From NCBI GenBank assembly GCA_020845475.1, contig JADLFN010000026.1, forward strand, positions 7,080 to 71,079: DNA of 64,000 bases, in the 5' to 3' direction. How positions within the stretch are numbered: position 1 is the first letter of the stretch; every line of letters starts with the position of its first letter. Under the pieces are notes generated by a model. It did not search any database, was not told where the DNA came from, and worked only from the letters and a program-made list of their open reading frames with translations. A program made the translations under genes and the position numbers. Of the stretch, positions 1-7,994 are shown piece after piece. Origin of the DNA: Planctomycetota bacterium (GTDB lineage: Bacteria; Planctomycetota; UBA8742; UBA2392).

Positions 1-546
1 AGCCCTGATTTCGATGCGCCGATGGTGGCCGCAAACGAGATTCTCGAGTTCGAGGTTACAGTCACCGATGACCGCGGCGACTTCACGACCGATCGCGTGC
101 AGGTGACTGTCGAAGAGAATCTGCCGCCCGTCGCCAACGCCGGGCCCGACCAGGGCGCAATGTTCACGTCTCTCGTTCAGCTCAGCGGCAGCGGCAGCAC
201 GGACCCGAACACCGGCGACGTGCTGACGTATTCCTGGACGCAGATCTCCGGCACGAGCGTCACGCTCAGCGGCGCCAACACGGCATTCCCGTCGTTCGTC
301 ACCGGAGGCGGAGACGCGACCTTCGTGTTCGAACTGACCGTGACCGATTCGCTGGGCCTGACCTCGACCGATCAAGTGCGCGTGGTCGTAAACAAGAACG
401 GCATCATCGGCAGTGGGGGAGGCGGCGGCGACAAAGGCGACGGCGGCTGCACCACCGGCGAGTCAGTGGGGGTGCTGTGGCTTGCGGCCCTGATGTTGAC
501 GTTGCTGCTCAGGCGCACACGCAGGGAGAAGGCATTCGCACGTTGA
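1..546 (+). CDS. C-terminal part of a secreted PKD/Ig-like repeat protein ending in a Gly-run/Cys/TM/basic tail (5' end outside the window)
   Basis: The frame is open from base 1 (agc cct gat ttc ...); track ORF 22..546. Repeated modules EFEVTVTDDRGDFTTDRVQVTV and FVFELTVTDSLGLTSTDQVRVVV plus the linker PPVANAGPDQ are typical of PKD-type repeats. Tail: GSGGGGGDKGDGGC-TTGESVGVLWLAALMLTLLL-RRTRRE. Confidence 0.75.
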   Translation, partial: SPDFDAPMVAANEILEFEVTVTDDRGDFTTDRVQVTVEENLPPVANAGPDQGAMFTSLVQLSGSGSTDPNTGDVLTYSWTQISGTSVTLSGANTAFPSFVTGGGDATFVFELTVTDSLGLTSTDQVRVVVNKNGIIGSGGGGGDKGDGGCTTGESVGVLWLAALMLTLLLRRTRREKAFAR

Positions 547-566
547 AGGTGAGTGTGCGTCCGTGA

Positions 567-594
567 GTAGGGGCGACATATATGTCGCCCCTAC
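567..594. repeat. 28-nt perfect palindrome GTAGGGGCGACATATATGTCGCCCCTAC (REP-like element; possible bidirectional terminator between convergent genes)
   Basis: Read directly from the sequence. An identical 28-mer recurs at 55480..55507 and a variant at 7310..7333. Confidence 0.9.
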
Positions 595-609
595 GGTGCA
601 ATCTCTCGA

Positions 610-629
610 GGGCGACCCATGGGTCGCCC
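610..629. repeat. 20-nt palindrome GGGCGACCCATGGGTCGCCC (REP-like, same GGGCGAC/GTCGCCC arms)
   Basis: Read directly. A near-identical copy GGGCGACCCATCGGTCGCCC lies at 55426..55445. It abuts the dapA stop codon (630..632). Confidence 0.85.
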
Positions 630-1502
630 CTACAGCGCACCGAAATCCTTGAGCGCTTTCCTCAGGACTTCTTTGTTCTTGTCCGCCAACGGCGCCAGCG
701 GCAGGCGCACGTGCTCTTTGATCTTGCCCAGCATCGCCAAGGCGGCCTTTGCGGGCACGGGGTTGGTTTCAATAAACAAGGCGTTGATCACGGGCAGCAG
801 TTTCAAGTGAAGCTCCATGCCCTTGTCGAGATTCTTCGCGGCGCACGCATCCACAAGCTCGCGAATCGCGCGCGGAACCACGTTGCTGGCCACGGAAATT
901 ACGCCCGTGGCCCCCATGGCCATCATGGGAAAGGTCAGTCCGTCATCGCCCGAAAGCACCGTCAGCTTTGAAAGGCGCAGGACTTGCGCCGTCTGCTCGA
1001 GATTGGCCGCAGCATCCTTGTAAGCCACCACGTTTTTGAAGTCGGCATTAAGTCGCGCGCAGGTTTCCGGCAACAGGTTCACAGCGGCGCGGCCCGGCAC
1101 GTTGTAGAGCACCACGGGTATTTTCGTGGCCTTGGCCACTTCGGCGTAGTGGCGGTACAGCCCTTCCTGCTGCGGCTTGTTGTACGCGGGCGTCACGACC
1201 AAGACGGCATCGGCGCCCATTTTCTCGGCGCGCTTGGTGGCTTCCACCGTGGCCCAGGTCGCGCTCGAGCCGGTGCCCGCAATGATCGGCACGCGCTTTT
1301 TCGCGGCCTTGATGACGCGTTCAATGACTGCTTCGCGCTCATCGTTGTTGAGCGTGATGCTTTCGCCTGTGCTGCCGCAGGGAATTAGGCCCTGCGTGCC
1401 CTGCTCGATTTGCCAGTGAACGAGCTTCTCCAGGGCGTCGAGGTCAACTTTGCCGCTGTCGTCGAAGGGTGTAACAATGGCCGTGATGCTGCCAGCAAAC
1501 AT
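630..1502 (-). CDS. dapA: 4-hydroxy-tetrahydrodipicolinate synthase
   Basis: 290 aa. MFAGSITAIVTPF...GLIPCGSTGESITL...IIAGTGS...VLVVTPAYNKP...PVVLYNVPGR is the classic DapA pattern. Confidence 0.95.
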   Translation of the reverse strand: MFAGSITAIVTPFDDSGKVDLDALEKLVHWQIEQGTQGLIPCGSTGESITLNNDEREAVIERVIKAAKKRVPIIAGTGSSATWATVEATKRAEKMGADAVLVVTPAYNKPQQEGLYRHYAEVAKATKIPVVLYNVPGRAAVNLLPETCARLNADFKNVVAYKDAAANLEQTAQVLRLSKLTVLSGDDGLTFPMMAMGATGVISVASNVVPRAIRELVDACAAKNLDKGMELHLKLLPVINALFIETNPVPAKAALAMLGKIKEHVRLPLAPLADKNKEVLRKALKDFGAL

Positions 1503-1645
1503 GGTGGCTCCCGATAGTGCCCCGACAGGTTGACCATTTTTCGCGCGCCGTCAATCAGCAGTGCCCGCAAAGCCGCTAACTGAGCGGTTAGCGAGCCCGC
1601 GTCCGAATCTGTCGCAGCGCCTGCTAGCATTCGAGTGGGGGACTC

Positions 1646-2167
1646 ATGGCCGAATTTCGCCTGAGCATGCGCGCTATTGAACGCGGCGAGAAGCCGCGCC
1701 GTGCCCGCGCGCCCAAAGTGGTGAAACCGCCACGGCCGCTGAGCCAGTTGCGCAAGCGAGGCTACCCCAAAGATTGGGCCAAAATCAGCAGGCGCGTGCG
1801 CTTTGAGCGCGCCAAAGGCATCTGCGAGAACTGCGGCAAGCGCCACGGCGAGATTGTGTATCAGGGCCCGCAGGGATCATGGCAACGCGACGGCAAGTGG
1901 TTTGACGCCAACGGGAAACCCATCGATGCGCCGCCGCCGTGGCCAAGCCGCCAATGGTGGGACCATTTGCGGCACTACGGTGACCCGCCGCATATCAAGC
2001 GCGTCAAAGTCATCCTGCACACGGCGCACCTCGACCACAACCCAAGCAACTGCGCCGATGAAAACCTGGCCGCGTTCTGCCAGGCCTGTCATTTGAGATA
2101 CGACGAGGGCCTGCACCGCTGGACCTGGGGATCACGCGGGATCTCTCCCGCGGACAAAGAGTTCTAG
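1646..2167 (+). CDS. HNH endonuclease (phage-type, stand-alone)
   Basis: 173 aa. CENCGKRHG ... HTAHLDHNPSNCADENLAAFCQACHLRYD gives a Cys pair plus an H-N-H core. Confidence 0.8.
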   Translation: MAEFRLSMRAIERGEKPRRARAPKVVKPPRPLSQLRKRGYPKDWAKISRRVRFERAKGICENCGKRHGEIVYQGPQGSWQRDGKWFDANGKPIDAPPPWPSRQWWDHLRHYGDPPHIKRVKVILHTAHLDHNPSNCADENLAAFCQACHLRYDEGLHRWTWGSRGISPADKEF

Positions 2168-2229
2168 CATGGGCGGCGAAATTCAAATACGATCCGCAGC
2201 GATCTTGAACCACTCCAGGATAATCAGAG

Positions 2230-3303
2230 ATGGCAACAACTAAGCGTGAACTATTTATTCAGGACGAGCTTGGCGACGAACACGTAGTCGTCCCATTCAA
2301 GTACGCGATAACCAGTTACGGTGCCGACTACGACGTCCGCGGCATTGTGCACAGAATTAAGGACGAGGACATTTACGTACCGCGATTTCAGCGCGGCTAT
2401 GTGTGGAACTACCATCAAGCGTCGCGATTTATTGAGACGCTCTTGCTCGGCTTACCGGTACCGGGCATTTTCTTGGCCCGCGAGGCAGAGACAAATCGAC
2501 TTTTGGTCGTAGATGGTCAACAACGACTGAAGACCTTGCTCTTCTTCTATGAGGGCGTGTTTGGACCAAATGAGCGGGCGTTCTCGCTAGTTGACGTTCA
2601 GGAACAATTTGAAGGACTCTCCTACAAGAAGCTTGATCAGCAGGACCGCCGCCGCCTTGACGACTCAATCCTGCACGCCACGGTTATCAAGCAAGACGTT
2701 CCCTCGGAGGATGACAGTAGCATCTACCACGTGTTCGAGAGGCTGAACACAGGTGGTACGCGATTGCAGCCCCAAGAAATACGGGCCTGTATCTACCACG
2801 GAGAATTTAATGAAGCCCTAGATGATCTAAACAAGACGAAATCCTGGCGATCGATCTTTGGCGCTGTAAACAAACGGATGAGAGACAAGGAGTTGATCCT
2901 GCGCTACTTTGCGTTGCTTTACCACTCCAACAGCTATAAGCGCCCAATGGTCGAATTCCTCAACCGGTACATGGGTGCCAATCGACATCTCCAGAAGCAA
3001 CAGTTTGGACAACTAAGGACTGACTTCGTCGAAGTAATTGACATCGTATTCGAATCGGTCGGGAAACGTGCATTCAAGCCCGAGCGCGCATTCAATGCCG
3101 CCGTGTTCGACTCGGTCATGGTCGGCATTTCCAGGCGCCTGAGCAACGGGCGAATTAGCAAGATTACAGATGTTGGCAGCAAGTACCGTGAACTGATCAA
3201 AGATGCAGATTTTCAGGAGGTATGCAGCACTTCGACCTCTCAAGAGGATCGCCTCGAAAAGAGACTGAAGATCGCGACAAGGTACTTTCACGAGGTCGAT
3301 TAG
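2230..3303 (+). CDS. DUF262 (ParB/GmrSD N-terminal-like) domain protein
   Basis: 357 aa. PRFQRGYVWNYHQASRFIETLLLGLPVPGIFL...LLVVDGQQRLKTL matches the DUF262 signature including DGQQRL. No DUF1524/HNH C-terminal domain is seen. The gene is more AT-rich than its flanks by eye. Confidence 0.85.
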   Translation: MATTKRELFIQDELGDEHVVVPFKYAITSYGADYDVRGIVHRIKDEDIYVPRFQRGYVWNYHQASRFIETLLLGLPVPGIFLAREAETNRLLVVDGQQRLKTLLFFYEGVFGPNERAFSLVDVQEQFEGLSYKKLDQQDRRRLDDSILHATVIKQDVPSEDDSSIYHVFERLNTGGTRLQPQEIRACIYHGEFNEALDDLNKTKSWRSIFGAVNKRMRDKELILRYFALLYHSNSYKRPMVEFLNRYMGANRHLQKQQFGQLRTDFVEVIDIVFESVGKRAFKPERAFNAAVFDSVMVGISRRLSNGRISKITDVGSKYRELIKDADFQEVCSTSTSQEDRLEKRLKIATRYFHEVD

Positions 3304-3758
3304 TGCATCCGGACATAGTCGCGCATCAGTCACGTCTGAAATCGACTTTGGCCTTCGCACAGAAGTTAGTCGATGCCGAAGCACAGGGGCATTTTGCTCG
3401 TTACATTTGTGTTCTGACTTCTGGGTTTATCGAACAAGCGATTCGAGTGCATTTTGGTGCCTACGCCCAAATCCATGCCTCTCCTGAACTCGTTCGATTC
3501 ATCTCGAAGGAGTTGGAGACATTTCAAAACCCCAAAGTAGGCAAGGTCATTGCTCTCTTGCAAAAGTTCAGCGAGGACTGGGCGAGGGAAGTGCAAAGTG
3601 GAATCGAGGGACGCATCGGCGACCATATCGATAGTATCGTCGCTAGACGCCACGAGATAGCGCACGGAAAACCTAGCGGCCTCAGCTTGGGCACCGCTAC
3701 AGAGTACCTAAAGAGTGCGTTCGAATTCCTTGAGGTTATCTGCAGCAAGTGTGCCTAG
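3303..3758 (+). CDS. small HEPN-domain protein (MAE_28990-like; Rx4-6H motif)
   Basis: In-frame GTG at 3303 overlaps the DUF262 stop (TAGTG), suggesting translational coupling. The protein is all-helical with ARRHEIAHGKP near the C-terminal third, which fits the HEPN Rx4-6H motif. The track ORF starts earlier (3222) inside the upstream gene. Confidence 0.7.
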   Translation: MHPDIVAHQSRLKSTLAFAQKLVDAEAQGHFARYICVLTSGFIEQAIRVHFGAYAQIHASPELVRFISKELETFQNPKVGKVIALLQKFSEDWAREVQSGIEGRIGDHIDSIVARRHEIAHGKPSGLSLGTATEYLKSAFEFLEVICSKCA

Positions 3759-3974
3759 TACGATTCTAGCCCTCAGACCCCCTACGTCCGATAATCAGTG
3801 TTATGTGCGGTTGGGGGTCCGAGGGGGCTGCTGCCAGCCGTCTGGCTCTGCTGGCTGGTTTGGCGCCGATTGACGGTCACGGGTTGCTGCTTTGCTTGCC
3901 TGCGGCCGAGTTTACTTCACCGGCTTGGGCATTCGGGAGTTAAACTGGCACTTTGCCCCGACTCTCGGCCCCAA

Positions 3975-5237
3975 TTGAGGCTTTCCTTGGCTTCTAAATC
4001 GATCCTGGCGCTTTTCGCCCTGTGTGCCGCTTTGCTGGCGGCTTCCACGCTGGCTGCTGCTACTTTGAACGTGACGCTCAGCGGCGCCTCGCCCGCGAAC
4101 TTCGAAAACCGGCTCAGCGACACTTCCATTGAGGTCACGCGCTTTGTGCTAACCTCAACTGGCGCTTCCGTGGATTGTTCGGCCGTGACTATCACGTTTA
4201 CGAACCCAACCACGGCCGACGAAGCTTTCACCGCCGTGCGCGTGTTCTATGACGCCAACGGCAACTCCAGTTTCGAAGCCGGCGAAGAAATCGGCGTCGG
4301 CCAGGCGCCCAACGGCGTAGCCGCGACACTGTTGTTCACCGGCGCGTTCAGCGTGCCCACCAGTTCGCGCCTGATGCAGGTGATTGTCAACACCGGCGCC
4401 AATGTGGCCAGTTACGGCGACGGGTTTCGTTTCAGCATCGCGGCGGCTGGCGATATCACGCTGGCGAATCCCGGCACCGATAGCGTCACGGGTGCGTTTC
4501 CCGTTCAAGGGAACACGATCACCATCCGCAACAGCATGTCCAATCTGCTGGCGGGCACGGGCAATCCCGCATCGCCGCGCACCGTGGCTCGCGGAAGCAC
4601 CAACGTTGCCGGGGCGCACTTTCGCCTTGACTGTCTGGCGGCCGTGATTCCCGGCGAGCTGGTAGGTCTTGACCTGTCAAGCATCACCGTCAGCCTCAAC
4701 CTCGGCGCACCCGCCGATGCCAACGTGATTGCTTCGGTCAGCCTGTTCGGCGACGATTTCGATGCCGCGTTTGAGCCCAACACACAAGACCCGCTGATCC
4801 AGGCGCGCACCAGCGCCGACGTCGCCAAGTGGGCGGTGGCCGGCAGCACCTTGACGGTCATCTTCGACGGCGCGGCTGTCACGGCGCTTACTTCGATCAA
4901 TTCGGGCACCGTGCGCGCCTTCTGGATTGGCGTGAGTTTCAACAGCACGGCCGACGCTGTCGTGGAAGTGCTGGTCAATCGCACCGGAATTCTCGGGGCC
5001 GAAGGCGCAAGCGGCGATTTCCTGACCACCGCGATCACCAGCATCAGCGGCAACGTGATTACCGTCAGTGGAAGCGGCGGCGGCGGAGGTGACGGCGGCC
5101 AGGGCAATCGGCCCTCGGAAGAGGGCGGCTGTGTTGTCTCCCCCACTGGCTCATGGGCGCCGGGGATGTTGCTTTGCATGCTGGCGGCGGGCTTCTGGTT
5201 TGTGCGTAAGCGTAGCCGGCCCAATTCCACTACTTAG
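3975..5237 (+). CDS. secreted protein of unknown function with a Gly-run/Cys/TM/basic C-terminal tail
   Basis: Track ORF 3798..5237 (GTG). The signal-peptide-like stretch SKSILALFALCAALLAASTLAAA follows an in-frame TTG at 3975, so the start is uncertain. Tail: SGSGGGGGDGGQGNRPSEEGGC-VVSPTGSWAPGMLLCMLAAGFWFV-RKRSR. Confidence 0.6.
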   Translation: MRLSLASKSILALFALCAALLAASTLAAATLNVTLSGASPANFENRLSDTSIEVTRFVLTSTGASVDCSAVTITFTNPTTADEAFTAVRVFYDANGNSSFEAGEEIGVGQAPNGVAATLLFTGAFSVPTSSRLMQVIVNTGANVASYGDGFRFSIAAAGDITLANPGTDSVTGAFPVQGNTITIRNSMSNLLAGTGNPASPRTVARGSTNVAGAHFRLDCLAAVIPGELVGLDLSSITVSLNLGAPADANVIASVSLFGDDFDAAFEPNTQDPLIQARTSADVAKWAVAGSTLTVIFDGAAVTALTSINSGTVRAFWIGVSFNSTADAVVEVLVNRTGILGAEGASGDFLTTAITSISGNVITVSGSGGGGGDGGQGNRPSEEGGCVVSPTGSWAPGMLLCMLAAGFWFVRKRSRPNSTT

Positions 5238-5263
5238 TTAGATACTGGGCAACTGGAGAGGAC

Positions 5264-6235
5264 ATGAAAGCCACAGCGTTGGGATTGCTGGCCTTGGCGA
5301 GCGTGTTGTTTGCTGGCTCGCTTAGCGCCGTCGCCGTCGGGGAAATGGGCCCCGATTTCAAGTTCGACAAGAGCTGGAACACAATTGAGGGCGCGACCAA
5401 GCTCTCTGACTACCGTGAGCGCGTGGTACTCGTTGAACGATGGGCCACGAACTGAAGCCCCTGCATGCGCGGGGTCCCGCACTTGAATGAACTGAACAAG
5501 AAATACCGCGAACGCGGCTTCGAGATTGTTGCCGTAAGCAGTGAAGCCGCCGGCACCATTGAAGACAAGATGGTCAAAGGGGCAAGCGCCTCCTTTGGAG
5601 TTGTGAAGGCCGATATTGCAGCCCTGTACCAGACCAACGGCATCCCCCACGGCTGGGTTCTTGACGCCGAGGGAAAGTGCATCTGGGAAGGCCACCCGGC
5701 CCAGTTGAACGATGCACAGATCGAAGAGTGGATCAAGGATCTCGCCCCCGGCAAGATCACGCGCGAGGTTCAAAAGCCGCTAAAGGCGTCCGTTGAGGCC
5801 TACAACAAGGGCCAGTTCGGAAAGGCCTTTGAAGCCGTGGCTGAGCACCTGACGTCTGAGGACGCAAAAGTCAAAGCTGACGCTGAATATGTCAACGGCG
5901 TGATCGAGAAGCGCAAAGCAGCAGGCGAGGCCAAGGCCAAGAAACTGCGCGACGCCGGCGATCTCGTCAAGCTGCTGCCGGTCCTTGAAGAAGAGGCCAA
6001 GGGCTGGGAAGGCAGCGAATACGGCAAGGCCTGCGGCGACGAAGCCAAGACGGTCAAGGCGAGCAAGGAATACAAGCTCTGCGCCAAAGCCGCCGACGCA
6101 TGGGCCAAGCTCGAGCCCAAGCTCAATGACCTTGCCGACGACAAAGCCGCCAAGGCGCTTGAGAAGTTCATCAAAGATTTCGCCGGAACGCCCCAGGCCA
6201 AGCTTGCCGAAGAGAGACTCAAAGACCTCAAATAG
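5264..6235 (+). CDS. periplasmic thioredoxin-fold (TlpA/ResA/redoxin-like) protein, predicted selenoprotein with UGA-Sec at 5453..5455 (U-S-P-C)
   Basis: ORFs 5264..5455 and 5465..6235 share a frame and are separated only by TGA agc ccc tgc. The read-through LSDYRERVVLVERWATN-U-SPC-MRGVPHLNELNKKYRERGFEIVAVS aligns with the FWATWCxPC redoxin motif. There is a signal peptide (MKATALGLLALASVLFAGSLSA) and a GGAGAGG Shine-Dalgarno-like sequence upstream. Confidence 0.8.
5458..5474 (+). promoter_or_regulatory. candidate bacterial SECIS-like hairpin 3 nt downstream of the UGA
   Basis: CCCCUG-CAUG-CG(C)GGGG: pairs 5458-5474, 5459-5473, 5460-5472, 5461-5471, 5462-5469 (GU), 5463-5468; loop 5464..5467. 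The same CUG-CAUG-CGG core follows the paralogue's UGA. Confidence 0.4.
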
Positions 6236-6249
6236 CCGGTGATTCAACG

Positions 6250-6282
6250 CGCCCGCCGGCAAAAGAGCTGGCGGGCGTTTTC
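6250..6282 (+). terminator. rho-independent terminator after the first selenoprotein gene
   Basis: CGCCCGCC (6250..6257) pairs with GGCGGGCG (6270..6277) and is followed by TTTT. Confidence 0.7.
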
Positions 6283-6307
6283 ATTCCTCTGGGCAAAGGG
6301 GACAGCA

Positions 6308-7282
6308 ATGAAGACGATGTTTCTAGCCGCGTGTTTGGCGCTGTACGCCACGACGCTTGCGGCCATGGACAAGGGCGAAGAAGCTCCCAACTTCAAGTTC
6401 GAGGCAAGCTGGAACACACTGCCCGGCGCGAAGCAGCTCACGGATTACCGCGGCAGAATTGTATTCCTCGAGATCTGGAAGATTCACTGAGAGCCCTGCA
6501 TGCGGTTTCTCCCGCACCTCGTTGAGGTAAATGAGAAGTATCGCGACAAAGGCGTCGAAATCATCATGGCCACGGACGTTGACAAGGCGCCCGAGCTTGA
6601 GAAATTCATCGCTGATAAGAAGCTCAAGCTTGGCGTCGCGCGCGTTGTGGACGTCTACAAGCTCGTCAAGGCCCAGGGCTACCCCACCAGCTACGGCATC
6701 GACGTTGACGGCAACTGCATCTGGCGCGGCCACCCGCAGGGGCTGAACGACGCGTTAGTGGATGGCTGGCTCAAAGACCTGCGCGCGCCCAAGATCCCGC
6801 GCAAGCTCAGTGATGCGCTTGGCGCGGCTGTGAGCGCATACGACAACGGCCAGTACGGTGGAGCGCTCAATGCGCTCGAAAAGCCGCTCAAACACAAGGA
6901 CGAGAAGGTCAAGGCTGACGCGCAGTACATCGCCGATCTGCTCAACGGCCGCCTCGAGATGAACAAGGCTGCCGCCAAGATCTACCGCGACAGCGGCGAA
7001 CTGGAGAAGCTCGTGGCGCTGCTCGAGGGCGACGCCAAGGACTTTGGCGGTATCGACTACGCCAAAGATTGCGCCAGCGAAGCCAAGAAGACCAAGGCCA
7101 GCAAGGCCTACAAGCAATGCGTCGAAGCGCGCGAGAAACTGGAGAAGCTGAAGCCCGGCCTCAAAGACATGAAGCCCGCAGATGCCGCCAAGGCCCTCAA
7201 CAAGCTCGCGAAAGAATTCGCCGATACGCCCGCAGGCAAGCAGGCCGCAGAATTGGCCAAGGAATACGAAGAGAAAAAGTAG
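6308..7282 (+). CDS. paralogous periplasmic thioredoxin-fold protein, predicted selenoprotein with UGA-Sec at 6488..6490 (U-E-P-C)
   Basis: ORFs 6239..6490 and 6500..7282 share a frame. Read-through: LTDYRGRIVFLEIWKIH-U-EPC-MRFLPHLVEVNEKYRDKGVEIIMATD. The likely start is ATG 6308 (MKTMFLAACLALYATTLAA signal peptide). It has the same C-terminal Lys/Ala/Glu-rich helical domain as 5264..6235. Confidence 0.8.
6491..6511 (+). promoter_or_regulatory. candidate bacterial SECIS-like hairpin immediately after the UGA
   Basis: GAG-cc-CUG-CAUG-CGG-uuu-CUC: outer pairs 6491-6511, 6492-6510, 6493-6509; inner pairs 6496-6505, 6497-6504 (GU), 6498-6503; loop 6499..6502. Confidence 0.4.
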
Positions 7283-7309
7283 AGATAGCGGGCACTTGCA
7301 ACGTGTAAC

Positions 7310-7333
7310 AGGGGCGACAAAGATGTCGCCCCT
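7310..7333. repeat. REP-like palindrome AGGGGCGAC-AAAGAT-GTCGCCCCT
   Basis: Read directly. It has the same arms as the 28-mer at 567 and 55480, and is intergenic between 7282 and 7350. Confidence 0.85.
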
Positions 7334-7349
7334 ACCGTTAGGTGCATCG

Positions 7350-7994
7350 ATGCCTTTGAAACTCAATGAAATCGAACGCCGCGTTCTGGGCACGCTGATT
7401 GAGAAGTGGCTCACGACGCCGCAGGCCTACCCACTCTCGCTCAATGCGCTGACCAACGGCTGCAACCAGAAATCGGCGCGCGACCCCGAAACCAGTTACA
7501 CCGAGCAACAAGTTGAGCAAACCTGCATGAGCCTGAAAACGCGCTCGCTCGCCATGCAGTTCTTCGGCGCCGGCGCGCGCGTTTCAAAGTGGGAAGAGGC
7601 GCTGAGCGCCACGATGCACCTCGGCAAGGACGAAGTAGCCGTGCTGGCCGAGCTCATGCTGCGCGGCCCGCAAAGCGAAGGCGAGCTGCGCTCACGCGCC
7701 AGCCGCATGCACGATTTCCCAACGCTCGAATCCCTGCACGCCACACTCGAATCGCTGCGCACAAGGGCCGAGCCGCTGGTGCAAAGGCTGAGCGAAGAAG
7801 GCCGCACCCGCGGAGTACGCTGGGCCCACACGTTTTACGGAGAGGGCGAGAAGCTCCCCCAAGCCGCGCCGGAGGCCCCCACCACGGCATCAGGCAGCTT
7901 GAACGCAACAGCCGTGTCCCCCACTCTCGATCAGCGCCTCGCTGCGCTGGAAGCGCGCGTAGCCGAATTGGAGAGAAAGACGCTGGGGCTGTAA
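7350..7994 (+). CDS. yceH: YceH/DUF480 (UPF0502) family protein
   Basis: MPLKLNEIERRVLGTLIEKWLTTPQAYPLSLNALTNGCNQKSARDP...LMLRGPQSEGELRSRASRM matches the E. coli YceH pattern. ATG 7350 was chosen because ATG 7323 lies inside the palindrome. Confidence 0.8.
   Translation: MPLKLNEIERRVLGTLIEKWLTTPQAYPLSLNALTNGCNQKSARDPETSYTEQQVEQTCMSLKTRSLAMQFFGAGARVSKWEEALSATMHLGKDEVAVLAELMLRGPQSEGELRSRASRMHDFPTLESLHATLESLRTRAEPLVQRLSEEGRTRGVRWAHTFYGEGEKLPQAAPEAPTTASGSLNATAVSPTLDQRLAALEARVAELERKTLGL

What the first reader, a model, noticed from the sequence alone, without database searches (positions are those of the whole stretch)
2230..3758. DUF262 (ParB/GmrSD-N-like) gene translationally coupled to a small HEPN gene: candidate two-gene defence module
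Gene 1 (2230..3303) has the DUF262 signature (FQRGYVW ... VVDGQQRLKTL). This domain is the sensing/NTPase half of GmrSD, BrxU and SspE-type modification-dependent nucleases. Gene 1 lacks the DUF1524 His-Me nuclease half. Instead, its stop overlaps (TAGTG) the GTG start of a 151-aa helical protein carrying ARRHEIAHG, the HEPN Rx4-6H RNase motif (MAE_28990-like by recollection). The pair is visibly more AT-rich than the surrounding DNA, which suggests horizontal acquisition. By analogy with split GmrSD architectures and with HEPN abortive-infection effectors, DUF262 may act as a sensor controlling a HEPN RNase. I do not recognise this pair as one of the named, experimentally characterised defence systems.
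Basis: partly seen in the sequence, partly recalled or inferred. Interest (0 to 1): 0.75.

Follow-up and report, generated by a model that had tools for sequence, protein, structure and literature searches.

The report
PD-T4-2-type DUF262–HEPN anti-phage gene pair
The two genes are real and form a horizontally acquired copy of a known, experimentally validated two-gene anti-phage system (PD-T4-2: a ParB-like DUF262 NTPase plus a small HEPN RNase-type protein), so the pair is not a new system, although how this system works is still not published.

Summary
Gene A (2230..3303, 357 aa) is a DUF262/ParB-like protein. Gene B (GTG 3303..3758, 151 aa) is a HEPN protein of Pfam family RiboL-PSP. The TAG/GTG overlap and the low G+C are as described.

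The pair is not unrecognised. It has the architecture of PD-T4-2 (Vassallo et al. 2022, "DUF262, HEPN"). That system protects E. coli from T4, and its strain table lists a PD-T4-2B H127A HEPN mutant among the four mutants reported to lose protection. The RiboL-PSP-HEPN/ParB operon link was already tabulated in 2013.

I recovered the prototype from an E. coli P4-like satellite. Window A is 28% identical to it (E 6e-42). Window B is in the same Pfam family, but it misses PADLOC's PD-T4-2_B models.

In 79 of 80 other species, including archaea, a B homologue (two split, a few cut by contig ends) directly follows A, usually overlapping by 4 nt, and no third gene is conserved. A metagenome contig 89% identical on both sides has 63 nt where the window has this 1.6-kb cassette. 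The neighbouring HNH gene therefore belongs to the host backbone.

The likely mechanism, inferred and not shown, is a DNA-sensing NTPase that licenses a HEPN RNase. Verdict: new member of a known kind, low to moderate interest.

The parts
2135..3768 (.). The whole 1,634-bp cassette, defined as an insertion/deletion relative to a close relative.
   Evidence: Metagenome contig L085 aligns at 89% nucleotide identity to window 3..2134 and 3769..7492. It has the same gene order but only 63 nt between the two blocks. G+C falls from about 0.62 to about 0.50 over this stretch.
2135..2229 (+). 95-nt leader upstream of gene A. It replaces the last ~11 codons of the host HNH gene and presumably carries the cassette's own promoter (inferred).
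   Evidence: Homology to L085 ends at 2134; junction alignment. The consensus scan found no sigma-70-like promoter.
2230..3303 (+). Gene A: 357-aa protein with a ParB/DUF262 NTPase-type domain and a helical C-terminal domain (PD-T4-2A / NsnA-like).
   Evidence: PF03235 at 2.5e-29. PADLOC NsnA 1.7e-70 and PD-T4-2_A 1.1e-62, both near full length. 28% identity and E 6e-42 to the prototype PD-T4-2A. AF2 model pLDDT 81.6. Best PDB matches are BrxU 7p9k (prob 1.00), SspE and ParB CTPases.
2389..2406 (+). DUF262 motif I, QRxxxW (QRGYVW, residues 54-59).
   Evidence: Q54, R55 and W59 are invariant in 74/74 aligned homologues. Motif definition from PMC12065111.
2512..2526 (+). DUF262 motif II, DGxQR (DGQQR, residues 95-99), the predicted nucleotide-binding centre.
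   Evidence: D95, G96, Q98 and R99 are invariant in 74/74. Motif definition.
2734..2748 (+). DUF262 motif III, FxxxN (FERLN, residues 169-173).
   Evidence: F169 and N173 are invariant in 74/74.
3292..3305 (+). Coupling junction: GAGG (3292-3295), stop TAG of A (3301-3303), start GTG of B (3303-3305).
   Evidence: Read directly. In 82 homologous pairs (the genome loci plus three plasmid loci) the two genes overlap by 4 nt in 49, overlap by 1 nt in 6 and abut in 7.
3303..3758 (+). Gene B: 151-aa all-helical HEPN protein of the RiboL-PSP family (PD-T4-2B-like), the presumed RNase effector.
   Evidence: PF18735 at 4.4e-11, above the cut-off. AF2 pLDDT 95.4, seven helices. Top PDB fold matches are HEPN proteins 2hsb, 7bxo (HepT) and 4nqf, but they are weak (E 0.6-1, TM about 0.5). 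hhalign of the family against an E. coli B that hits PADLOC PD-T4-2_B: prob 98.7%, E 1.9e-16.
3648..3665 (+). HEPN Rx4H motif (R116-H-E-I-A-H121).
   Evidence: R116 is kept in 72/74 and H121 in 74/74 homologues. H121 is the His of the same Rx4H motif as H127 of PD-T4-2B, and the motifs align. H127 is the residue mutated in Vassallo's H127A strain.

Best explanation
Window 2135..3768 is a self-contained, horizontally acquired two-gene anti-phage cassette of the PD-T4-2 type.

Gene A encodes a ParB-fold DUF262 NTPase joined to a helical DNA-binding-type domain. This is the same sensor module found in GmrSD, BrxU, SspE and Menshen NsnA. Gene B is translationally coupled to A and encodes a minimal HEPN domain with an intact Rx4H site.

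Proposed mechanism:
1. A and B are made in fixed proportion and form a complex in which B is held inactive.
2. A recognises a feature of invading phage DNA. In relatives this feature is a base or backbone modification.
3. Nucleotide binding or hydrolysis at the DGQQR pocket switches A's conformation.
4. The switch licenses B, probably as a dimer, to cut RNA. This stops phage production, possibly at the cost of the infected cell.

Shown here: the genes, domains and motifs; strict pairing and coupling across prokaryotes; co-inheritance of the two genes; and the insertion relative to a near-identical genome.

Shown in the literature for the E. coli prototype: protection against T4. Vassallo et al. 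report that their four site-directed mutants lost protection, and their strain table lists PD-T4-2B H127A as one of the four.

Inferred: the A-B complex, the nature of the trigger, NTP-driven licensing, and RNA as the target.
For: Identity:
- A hits PADLOC PD-T4-2_A at 1.1e-62. It aligns to the recovered prototype PD-T4-2A over 314 aa at 28% identity, E 6e-42.
- The prototype was verified by Vassallo's primers and by PADLOC scores of 538 and 213 bits.
- B and the prototype B both pass Pfam PF18735 (43.5 and 31.4 bits).
- The B family links to E. coli B proteins at 98.4-98.7% hhalign probability.

Pairing:
- In 79 of 80 species genomes a B homologue follows A. Most overlap by 4 nt.
- No third gene is conserved.
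- A and B distances co-vary (Mantel r 0.74, 0/999 permutations).

Catalytic residues are conserved in both proteins.

Folds: A matches BrxU, SspE and ParB. B gives the best, though weak, matches to HEPN proteins.

Mobility:
- Empty site in L085 and a G+C dip.
- E. coli variants sit in a P4-like satellite, a P2-like prophage, a lambdoid prophage and plasmids.

Phenotype of the prototype. The sensor role of DUF262 in GmrSD and SspE is summarised in PMC12065111 and PMC10952713.
Against: - Window B does not hit any of PADLOC's three PD-T4-2_B models.
- Window B has no BLASTP alignment to the prototype B. The family-profile alignment to it is weak (prob 25%, E 7.5e-4). B-level membership therefore rests on the shared Pfam family, synteny and intermediate sequences.
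- No RNase activity, A-B interaction or trigger has been published for any member that I could find.
- The text available to me does not say whether PD-T4-2 acts by abortive infection or direct immunity.
- The locus is not in a defence island. Its neighbours are dapA, an HNH gene, a surface protein and thioredoxin-like genes, none with PADLOC defence hits apart from weak ZorE-like HNH matches.
- The host is an uncultured planctomycete, and no phenotype can be tested here.
Confidence: 0.75

Rival explanations
1. The pair is mainly a toxin-antitoxin or addiction module. HEPN B is a toxin, DUF262 A is its neutraliser, and the module stabilises mobile elements. Phage defence would then be a side effect at most.
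For: The gene order and tight coupling resemble TA operons. One E. coli variant is almost the only cargo of a 3.9-kb plasmid. Another lies beside pemIK on an IncF plasmid. HEPN proteins are toxins in HEPN-MNT systems, which are also the best structural matches.
Against: The prototype protects against T4 both in its native strain and on a low-copy plasmid. A is a 357-aa protein with invariant NTPase motifs, far more than a simple antitoxin needs. The window copy is a solitary chromosomal insertion with no element to stabilise. The two roles do not exclude each other.
Confidence: 0.12
2. A is itself the effector: a modification-dependent ParB-like DNA nuclease or nickase acting as a type IV restriction enzyme. 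B would be a non-catalytic adaptor or regulator.
For: DUF262 was first predicted to be the endonuclease half of GmrSD (abstract of PMC4619093). The closest solved structures are the type IV enzymes BrxU and SspE. The prototype was selected with T4, whose DNA is hypermodified.
Against: In GmrSD, BrxU and SspE the cutting or nicking is assigned to DUF1524, which is absent here. The HEPN Rx4H dyad is almost invariant in B. The H127A HEPN mutant is among the four mutants reported to lose protection.
Confidence: 0.1
3. The locus is a remnant of a three-gene Menshen (NsnABC) system that has lost NsnB and NsnC.
For: A scores slightly higher on PADLOC's NsnA model (236 bits) than on PD-T4-2_A (210 bits).
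Against: The gene after A is a HEPN protein with no NsnB or NsnC hit, and the next gene has no defence hit. The same A+B pair, with no third conserved gene, recurs in 79 of 80 genomes. The NsnA model also hits the genuine prototype PD-T4-2A at 197 bits, so this is cross-matching between related sensor modules.
Confidence: 0.02

Closest known systems
PD-T4-2 (Vassallo et al. 2022, Nat Microbiol; E. coli ECOR65; PADLOC PD-T4-2_A/B)
   Same: Both are two genes in the same order: a DUF262 protein of about 360 aa without DUF1524, followed at once by a HEPN protein of about 150-170 aa from Pfam family RiboL-PSP with Rx4H. A is homologous over its full length (28% identity, E 6e-42). Both sit as small cargo in variable or mobile spots.
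   Different: B is so diverged that PADLOC's B models and BLASTP miss it. The window belongs to a separate subgroup found mostly in environmental genomes. Within that subgroup A is about 51% identical across phyla, including archaea, and the pair is usually coupled by a 4-nt overlap. In the prototype locus the two genes are separated by a 4-nt gap. The host is a planctomycete, and no phenotype is known.
Menshen (NsnABC; Millman et al. 2022; Li et al. 2025, PMC12065111)
   Same: NsnA has the same two-domain sensor: ParB-DUF262 plus the helical 'ParBDB' domain. The PADLOC NsnA model matches A at 1.7e-70.
   Different: Menshen needs an NsnB ATPase and an NsnC inPIN-nuclease effector. Neither is present here, and the effector is a HEPN protein.
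GmrSD / BrxU / SspE (type IV, modification- or phosphorothioate-sensing enzymes)
   Same: They have the DUF262 NTPase domain with the same three motifs. BrxU and SspE are the best structural matches to A. In these enzymes DUF262 senses modified DNA and controls a nuclease.
   Different: Their effector is a fused DUF1524 His-Me DNA nuclease. Here the presumed effector is a separate HEPN protein, so the target is probably RNA, not DNA.
HEPN toxins of HEPN-MNT (HepT/MntA) toxin-antitoxin systems and Abi HEPN proteins (AbiD/AbiF)
   Same: They are small helical HEPN domains with Rx4-6H, and they are the best PDB fold matches. The 2013 survey calls RiboL-PSP-HEPN distantly related to AbiF/AbiD.
   Different: The partner here is a ParB-like NTPase, not a nucleotidyltransferase or an RNA antitoxin. 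Sequence similarity to solved HEPN structures is nil.

Membership tests
PD-T4-2 | Gene A has an N-terminal DUF262/ParB-like domain with QRxxxW, DGxQR and FxxxN motifs and no DUF1524. | tested here: met
   PF03235 at 2.5e-29 and no DUF1524 hit. The motifs are present and invariant across 74 homologues.
PD-T4-2 | Gene A is homologous to the prototype PD-T4-2A over its full length. | tested here: met
   PADLOC PD-T4-2_A at 1.1e-62, covering residues 50-354 of A and positions 55-362 of the 363-position model. BLASTP to the prototype (L095:5001-6092) gives 28% identity over 314 aa, E 6e-42.
PD-T4-2 | Gene B lies immediately downstream on the same strand and is a small HEPN protein of the RiboL-PSP family with Rx4H. 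| tested here: met
   PF18735 at 43.5 bits against a 28.4-bit cut-off. The prototype B scores 31.4 bits on the same model. R116 and H121 are present and conserved. The overlap is 1 nt.
PD-T4-2 | Gene B matches the PD-T4-2_B sequence models or the prototype B directly. | tested here: not met
   No hit to any PADLOC PD-T4-2_B model at E up to 10. No BLASTP alignment. hhalign of the family against the prototype B is only prob 25%, E 7.5e-4, though it is collinear and the motifs align. There is an indirect link: an E. coli B that hits PD-T4-2_B at 1.4e-8 aligns to the window's B family at prob 98.7%.
PD-T4-2 | Anti-phage protection that depends on the HEPN histidine. | not testable with these tools
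   Known only for the E. coli prototype: the deletion in ECOR65, the cloned system, and the H127A strain.
Menshen (NsnABC) | NsnA-like sensor (ParB-DUF262 plus ParBDB). | tested here: met
   PADLOC NsnA at 1.7e-70, covering residues 20-355 of A and positions 36-381 of the 385-position model.
Menshen (NsnABC) | NsnB ATPase gene and NsnC effector gene directly downstream of NsnA. | tested here: not met
   The downstream gene is the HEPN protein, with no PADLOC hit. The next gene, 3798..5237, has none either. No third gene is conserved in 80 loci.
GmrSD / BrxU / SspE type IV enzymes | DUF1524 His-Me finger nuclease domain, fused to DUF262 or encoded beside it. | tested here: not met
   There is no DUF1524 in A. 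The upstream HNH gene (1646..2167) is conserved host backbone that is present where the cassette is absent. It has no homologue next to the pair in 80 other genomes.
HEPN-MNT toxin-antitoxin | A minimal nucleotidyltransferase (MNT) antitoxin partner. | tested here: not met
   The only partner is the DUF262 protein.

The most novel reading that the evidence does not exclude
The window's pair represents a distinct subfamily of PD-T4-2 spread across bacterial phyla and into archaea. Its B component is invisible to the PADLOC v2 B models tested here. In this subfamily a ParB-type, nucleotide-gated DNA clamp or sensor would directly license a HEPN RNase. This would be a signalling route (ParB-fold NTPase to RNase) not yet demonstrated for any defence system. 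The trigger need not be hypermodified DNA, given hosts as different as planctomycetes, cyanobacteria and archaea.
Probability: 0.25. Interest if true: 0.55.

Novelty: new member of a known kind. Interest (0 to 1): 0.25.

Why it matters
For annotation, this is a real defence cassette that the PADLOC v2 models would probably leave uncalled. The A protein hits both the NsnA and PD-T4-2_A models, and the B protein hits nothing.

For biology, the PD-T4-2 mechanism is still unpublished in the literature I could search. The survey here gives material for mechanistic work:
- The A+B pair is strictly conserved and translationally coupled.
- It is inherited as a unit.
- It needs no third gene.
- It occurs in at least 553 species genomes from many phyla.
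- Both catalytic centres are invariant or nearly so.

It does not change what kinds of systems are known.

Tried and rejected
1. HNH gene 1646..2167 as a third component (a split GmrD-like nuclease). Rejected. It is kept next to dapA in relatives that lack the cassette (L085-L090), and it has no homologue in 80 cassette loci.

2. ATG 3222 as the start of B (178 aa). Rejected in favour of GTG 3303, based on homologue lengths and N-terminal alignment and the conserved stop/start overlaps.

3. Flanking direct repeats as an insertion signature. GATAATCAG occurs only twice in the window, once on each side of the cassette. However, across 74 loci the longest shared flank words match the null distribution, and 9 nt is only its 95th percentile. 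I treat this as probably chance. The exception is L042, with a 44-nt perfect repeat.

4. Defence-island context. The window's neighbours have no PADLOC defence hits apart from weak ZorE-like matches of the HNH gene. Neighbours in 80 loci are mostly housekeeping genes, with a minority of restriction-modification and other defence genes.

5. Direct sequence link of B to the prototype B. BLASTP finds nothing and hhalign is weak. I relied instead on the shared Pfam family and on intermediate sequences.

6. Solved structures. There are none for B by sequence. For A only the N-terminus of BrxU matches.

7. Other scans of the locus gave nothing: Rfam, tRNA, and promoters; the two terminator-like matches were within the shuffled expectation.

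8. Four other E. coli DUF262-HEPN variants (L001, L002, L084, L094) turned out not to be the prototype. The prototype was then found with a primer sequence from Vassallo's Table S8.
Full report
**The observation**

The region holds two same-strand ORFs exactly as described. Gene A runs 2230..3303 (357 aa) and contains FQRGYVW and VVDGQQRLKTL.

The frame of gene B is open from 3222, but an in-frame GTG sits at 3303. The sequence reads GAT-TAG-TGC, so the stop of A (3301-3303) and the GTG (3303-3305) share one base, and GAGG lies 7 nt upstream. The GTG start gives 151 aa. Homologues are 150-160 aa long and align from residue 1. The 95%-identical database protein P0001 is also 151 aa. I therefore accept GTG 3303.

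G+C is 0.50-0.53 across the pair and 0.60-0.64 on both sides.

**Domains**

A matches Pfam GmrSD_N (PF03235) at 2.5e-29, with no DUF1524 hit. B matches HEPN_RiboL-PSP (PF18735) at 4.4e-11, 43.5 bits against a 28.4-bit cut-off.

In PADLOC, A matches NsnA (1.7e-70) and PD-T4-2_A (1.1e-62), both over nearly its whole length. B matches nothing.

The AlphaFold model of B is confident (pLDDT 95.4) and all-helical. Its best PDB matches are HEPN proteins (2hsb, HepT 7bxo, 4nqf), but they are weak (E 0.6-1, TM about 0.5). No solved structure matches B by sequence.

The model of A (pLDDT 81.6) matches BrxU (prob 1.00, E 6.5e-5), then SspE and the ParB CTPases.

**The pair is a known system**

Vassallo et al. 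2022 (PMC9519451) list PD-T4-2 from E. coli ECOR65 as 'DUF262, HEPN'. Their HHpred table gives PF03235 for A, and PF18735 then PF18737 for B. These are the same two HEPN families, in the same order, that I obtained for the window's B.

- Deleting PD-T4-2 in ECOR65 restored T4 plaquing, and the cloned system protected K-12.
- The strain and plasmid tables list 'PD-T4-2B H127A'.
- This is one of four site-directed mutants. The paper says that in all four cases the mutated residues were essential for protection.
- Reviews list PD-T4-2 under both DUF262 and PF18735.
- The 2013 HEPN survey already tabulates 'Ribo L-PSP-HEPN ... operon with ParB' (PMC3710099).
- I found no paper on the mechanism of PD-T4-2.

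**Direct comparison with the prototype**

A 50-nt homology arm of Vassallo's deletion primer matches 17 complete E. coli chromosomes. In NZ_CP013025.1 the locus lies between psu and the integrase of a P4-like satellite at ssrA. Its B protein contains LKTPRNAAAHTFIKGTSMTI and ends in ...KTMKLL, as the mutagenesis and deletion primers require. The motif histidine is residue 127. These proteins score 538 bits on PADLOC PD-T4-2_A and 213 bits on PD-T4-2_B, so they are the prototype type.

| Comparison with the prototype | Result |
|---|---|
| Window A vs prototype A (BLASTP) | 28% identity over 314 aa, E 6e-42 |
| Window B vs prototype B (BLASTP) | no alignment |
| Window B family profile vs prototype B (hhalign) | prob 25%, E 7.5e-4; collinear; RHEIAH aligned to RNAAAH |
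| Prototype B on Pfam PF18735 | 31.4 bits (window B 43.5 bits) |

Intermediate sequences bridge the gap. An E. coli P2-prophage B that hits PD-T4-2_B at 1.4e-8 aligns to the window's B family at prob 98.7%, E 1.9e-16. A small-plasmid B aligns at 98.4%.

I therefore file the pair as a diverged member of the PD-T4-2 kind, with one caveat. B-level membership is supported by the shared Pfam family, by synteny and by intermediate sequences, not by the PADLOC B models.

**Co-occurrence**

I analysed the best 80, which include Thermoplasmata and Bathyarchaeota.

- In 79 of 80 loci an ORF matching the B-family HMM lies directly after A. It is split in two of them, and a few are cut by contig ends.
- Among 82 pairs, which include three plasmid loci, 49 overlap by 4 nt, 6 overlap by 1 nt and 7 abut.
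- Clustering of all flanking ORFs found no third conserved gene.
- The nearest neighbours are mostly housekeeping genes, with a minority of restriction-modification and other defence genes.
- Across 74 complete pairs, A averages 51% identity and B 37%. The two distance matrices are correlated (Mantel r 0.74, 0 of 999 permutations), so the genes travel together.
- In A, Q54, R55, W59, D95, G96, Q98, R99, F169 and N173 are invariant.
- In B, R116 is kept in 72/74 and H121 in 74/74.

**Acquisition**

A search with the upstream HNH protein found metagenome contig L085. It is 89% identical in nucleotides to window 3..2134 and 3769..7492 and has the same gene order. Where the window has 1,634 bp, L085 has only 63 nt.

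The cassette is therefore an insertion/deletion between close relatives. Together with the G+C dip, this points to insertion. The left boundary falls inside the 3' end of the HNH gene, whose last ~11 codons differ from L085.

The dapA-HNH arrangement is kept in relatives down to 54% HNH identity. The HNH gene is thus host backbone and not part of the module. Other relatives carry different DNA at the same spot.

The window's other neighbours have no PADLOC hits. The HNH gene has only weak ZorE-like matches. The cassette is therefore solitary and not part of a defence island.

E. coli carries at least five diverged DUF262-HEPN pairs, each in a different mobile-element spot.

**Mechanism**

By analogy with GmrSD, BrxU and SspE, DUF262 senses modified DNA and uses NTP hydrolysis to control a nuclease. 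Both catalytic centres are conserved here. The most likely model is that A senses phage DNA and, through nucleotide binding or hydrolysis, licenses the HEPN protein to cut RNA. Tight translational coupling suggests a stoichiometric complex.

The A-B complex, the trigger, NTP-driven licensing and RNA as the target are all inference. For the prototype the literature supports only that the system protects and that the HEPN histidine is needed.

The rival explanations are less likely, for the reasons given under each:
- a toxin-antitoxin or addiction role;
- A as the DNA-cutting effector;
- a decayed Menshen system.

**Verdict**

This is a new, diverged member of a known and experimentally validated kind. 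The remaining interest lies in the unsolved PD-T4-2 mechanism and in the fact that current PADLOC B models miss this widespread subgroup.

Noticed in passing
window 1646..2167 (+): A 173-aa HNH endonuclease gene lies 62 nt upstream of gene A. It has host-like G+C and only weak ZorE-like hits. It is conserved next to dapA in relatives that lack the cassette, and its last ~11 codons were replaced at the cassette boundary.
   Followed up: yes
window 2135..3768 and the same spot in L085-L089: The gap between the HNH gene and the surface-protein gene 3798..5237 varies among related contigs. L085 has 63 nt. L086 has a 353-aa ORF that looks like it has a signal peptide. L087 and L088 have other DNA of about 1.5 kb or more. 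The window has the DUF262-HEPN cassette.
   Followed up: partly
window 3779..3816: A 38-nt element just downstream of the cassette is 97% identical in contigs L089 and L091, although their proteins are only about 66-83% identical to the window's. It overlaps the predicted start of the 3798..5237 ORF. It has no Rfam match, and its function is unknown.
   Followed up: partly
window 2219..2227 and 3790..3798: The 9-mer GATAATCAG occurs only twice in the 64-kb window, once on each side of the cassette. The empty site in L085 has one copy. A test across 74 loci puts 9 nt within the null range, so this is probably chance.
   Followed up: yes
L042 (Acidobacteria MAG), about 150 nt upstream of A and 17 nt after B: A 44-nt perfect direct repeat flanks the DUF262-HEPN cassette in this genome. 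It is the only locus of 74 with such a repeat and could be a target duplication.
   Followed up: no
L057 (Schlesneria sp.) 3476..4847: In this planctomycete too, the cassette lies directly 5' of dapA (47.6% identical to the window's dapA), but in tandem orientation, whereas in the window it is divergent. This could be coincidence or a preferred spot.
   Followed up: no
L095, L084, L094, L001, L002 (E. coli): E. coli carries at least five mutually diverged DUF262-HEPN pairs, each in a different mobile-element spot: a P4-like satellite between psu and int (the prototype), a P2-like prophage between cI and int, a lambdoid prophage beside a truncated capsid gene, an IncF plasmid beside pemIK, and a 3.9-kb plasmid.
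   Followed up: partly
PADLOC models PDLC03877 (NsnA) and PDLC04027 (PD-T4-2_A): The NsnA model hits every PD-T4-2A-type protein tested at 197-236 bits, including the prototype. The PD-T4-2_B models miss most B variants. This creates a risk of partial-Menshen labels and of missed PD-T4-2 calls.
   Followed up: partly
window 5465..6235 and 6500..7282 (+): Two tandem paralogous genes of about 256-260 aa (about 41% identical to each other) follow the surface-protein gene. Both are conserved in L085.
   Followed up: no
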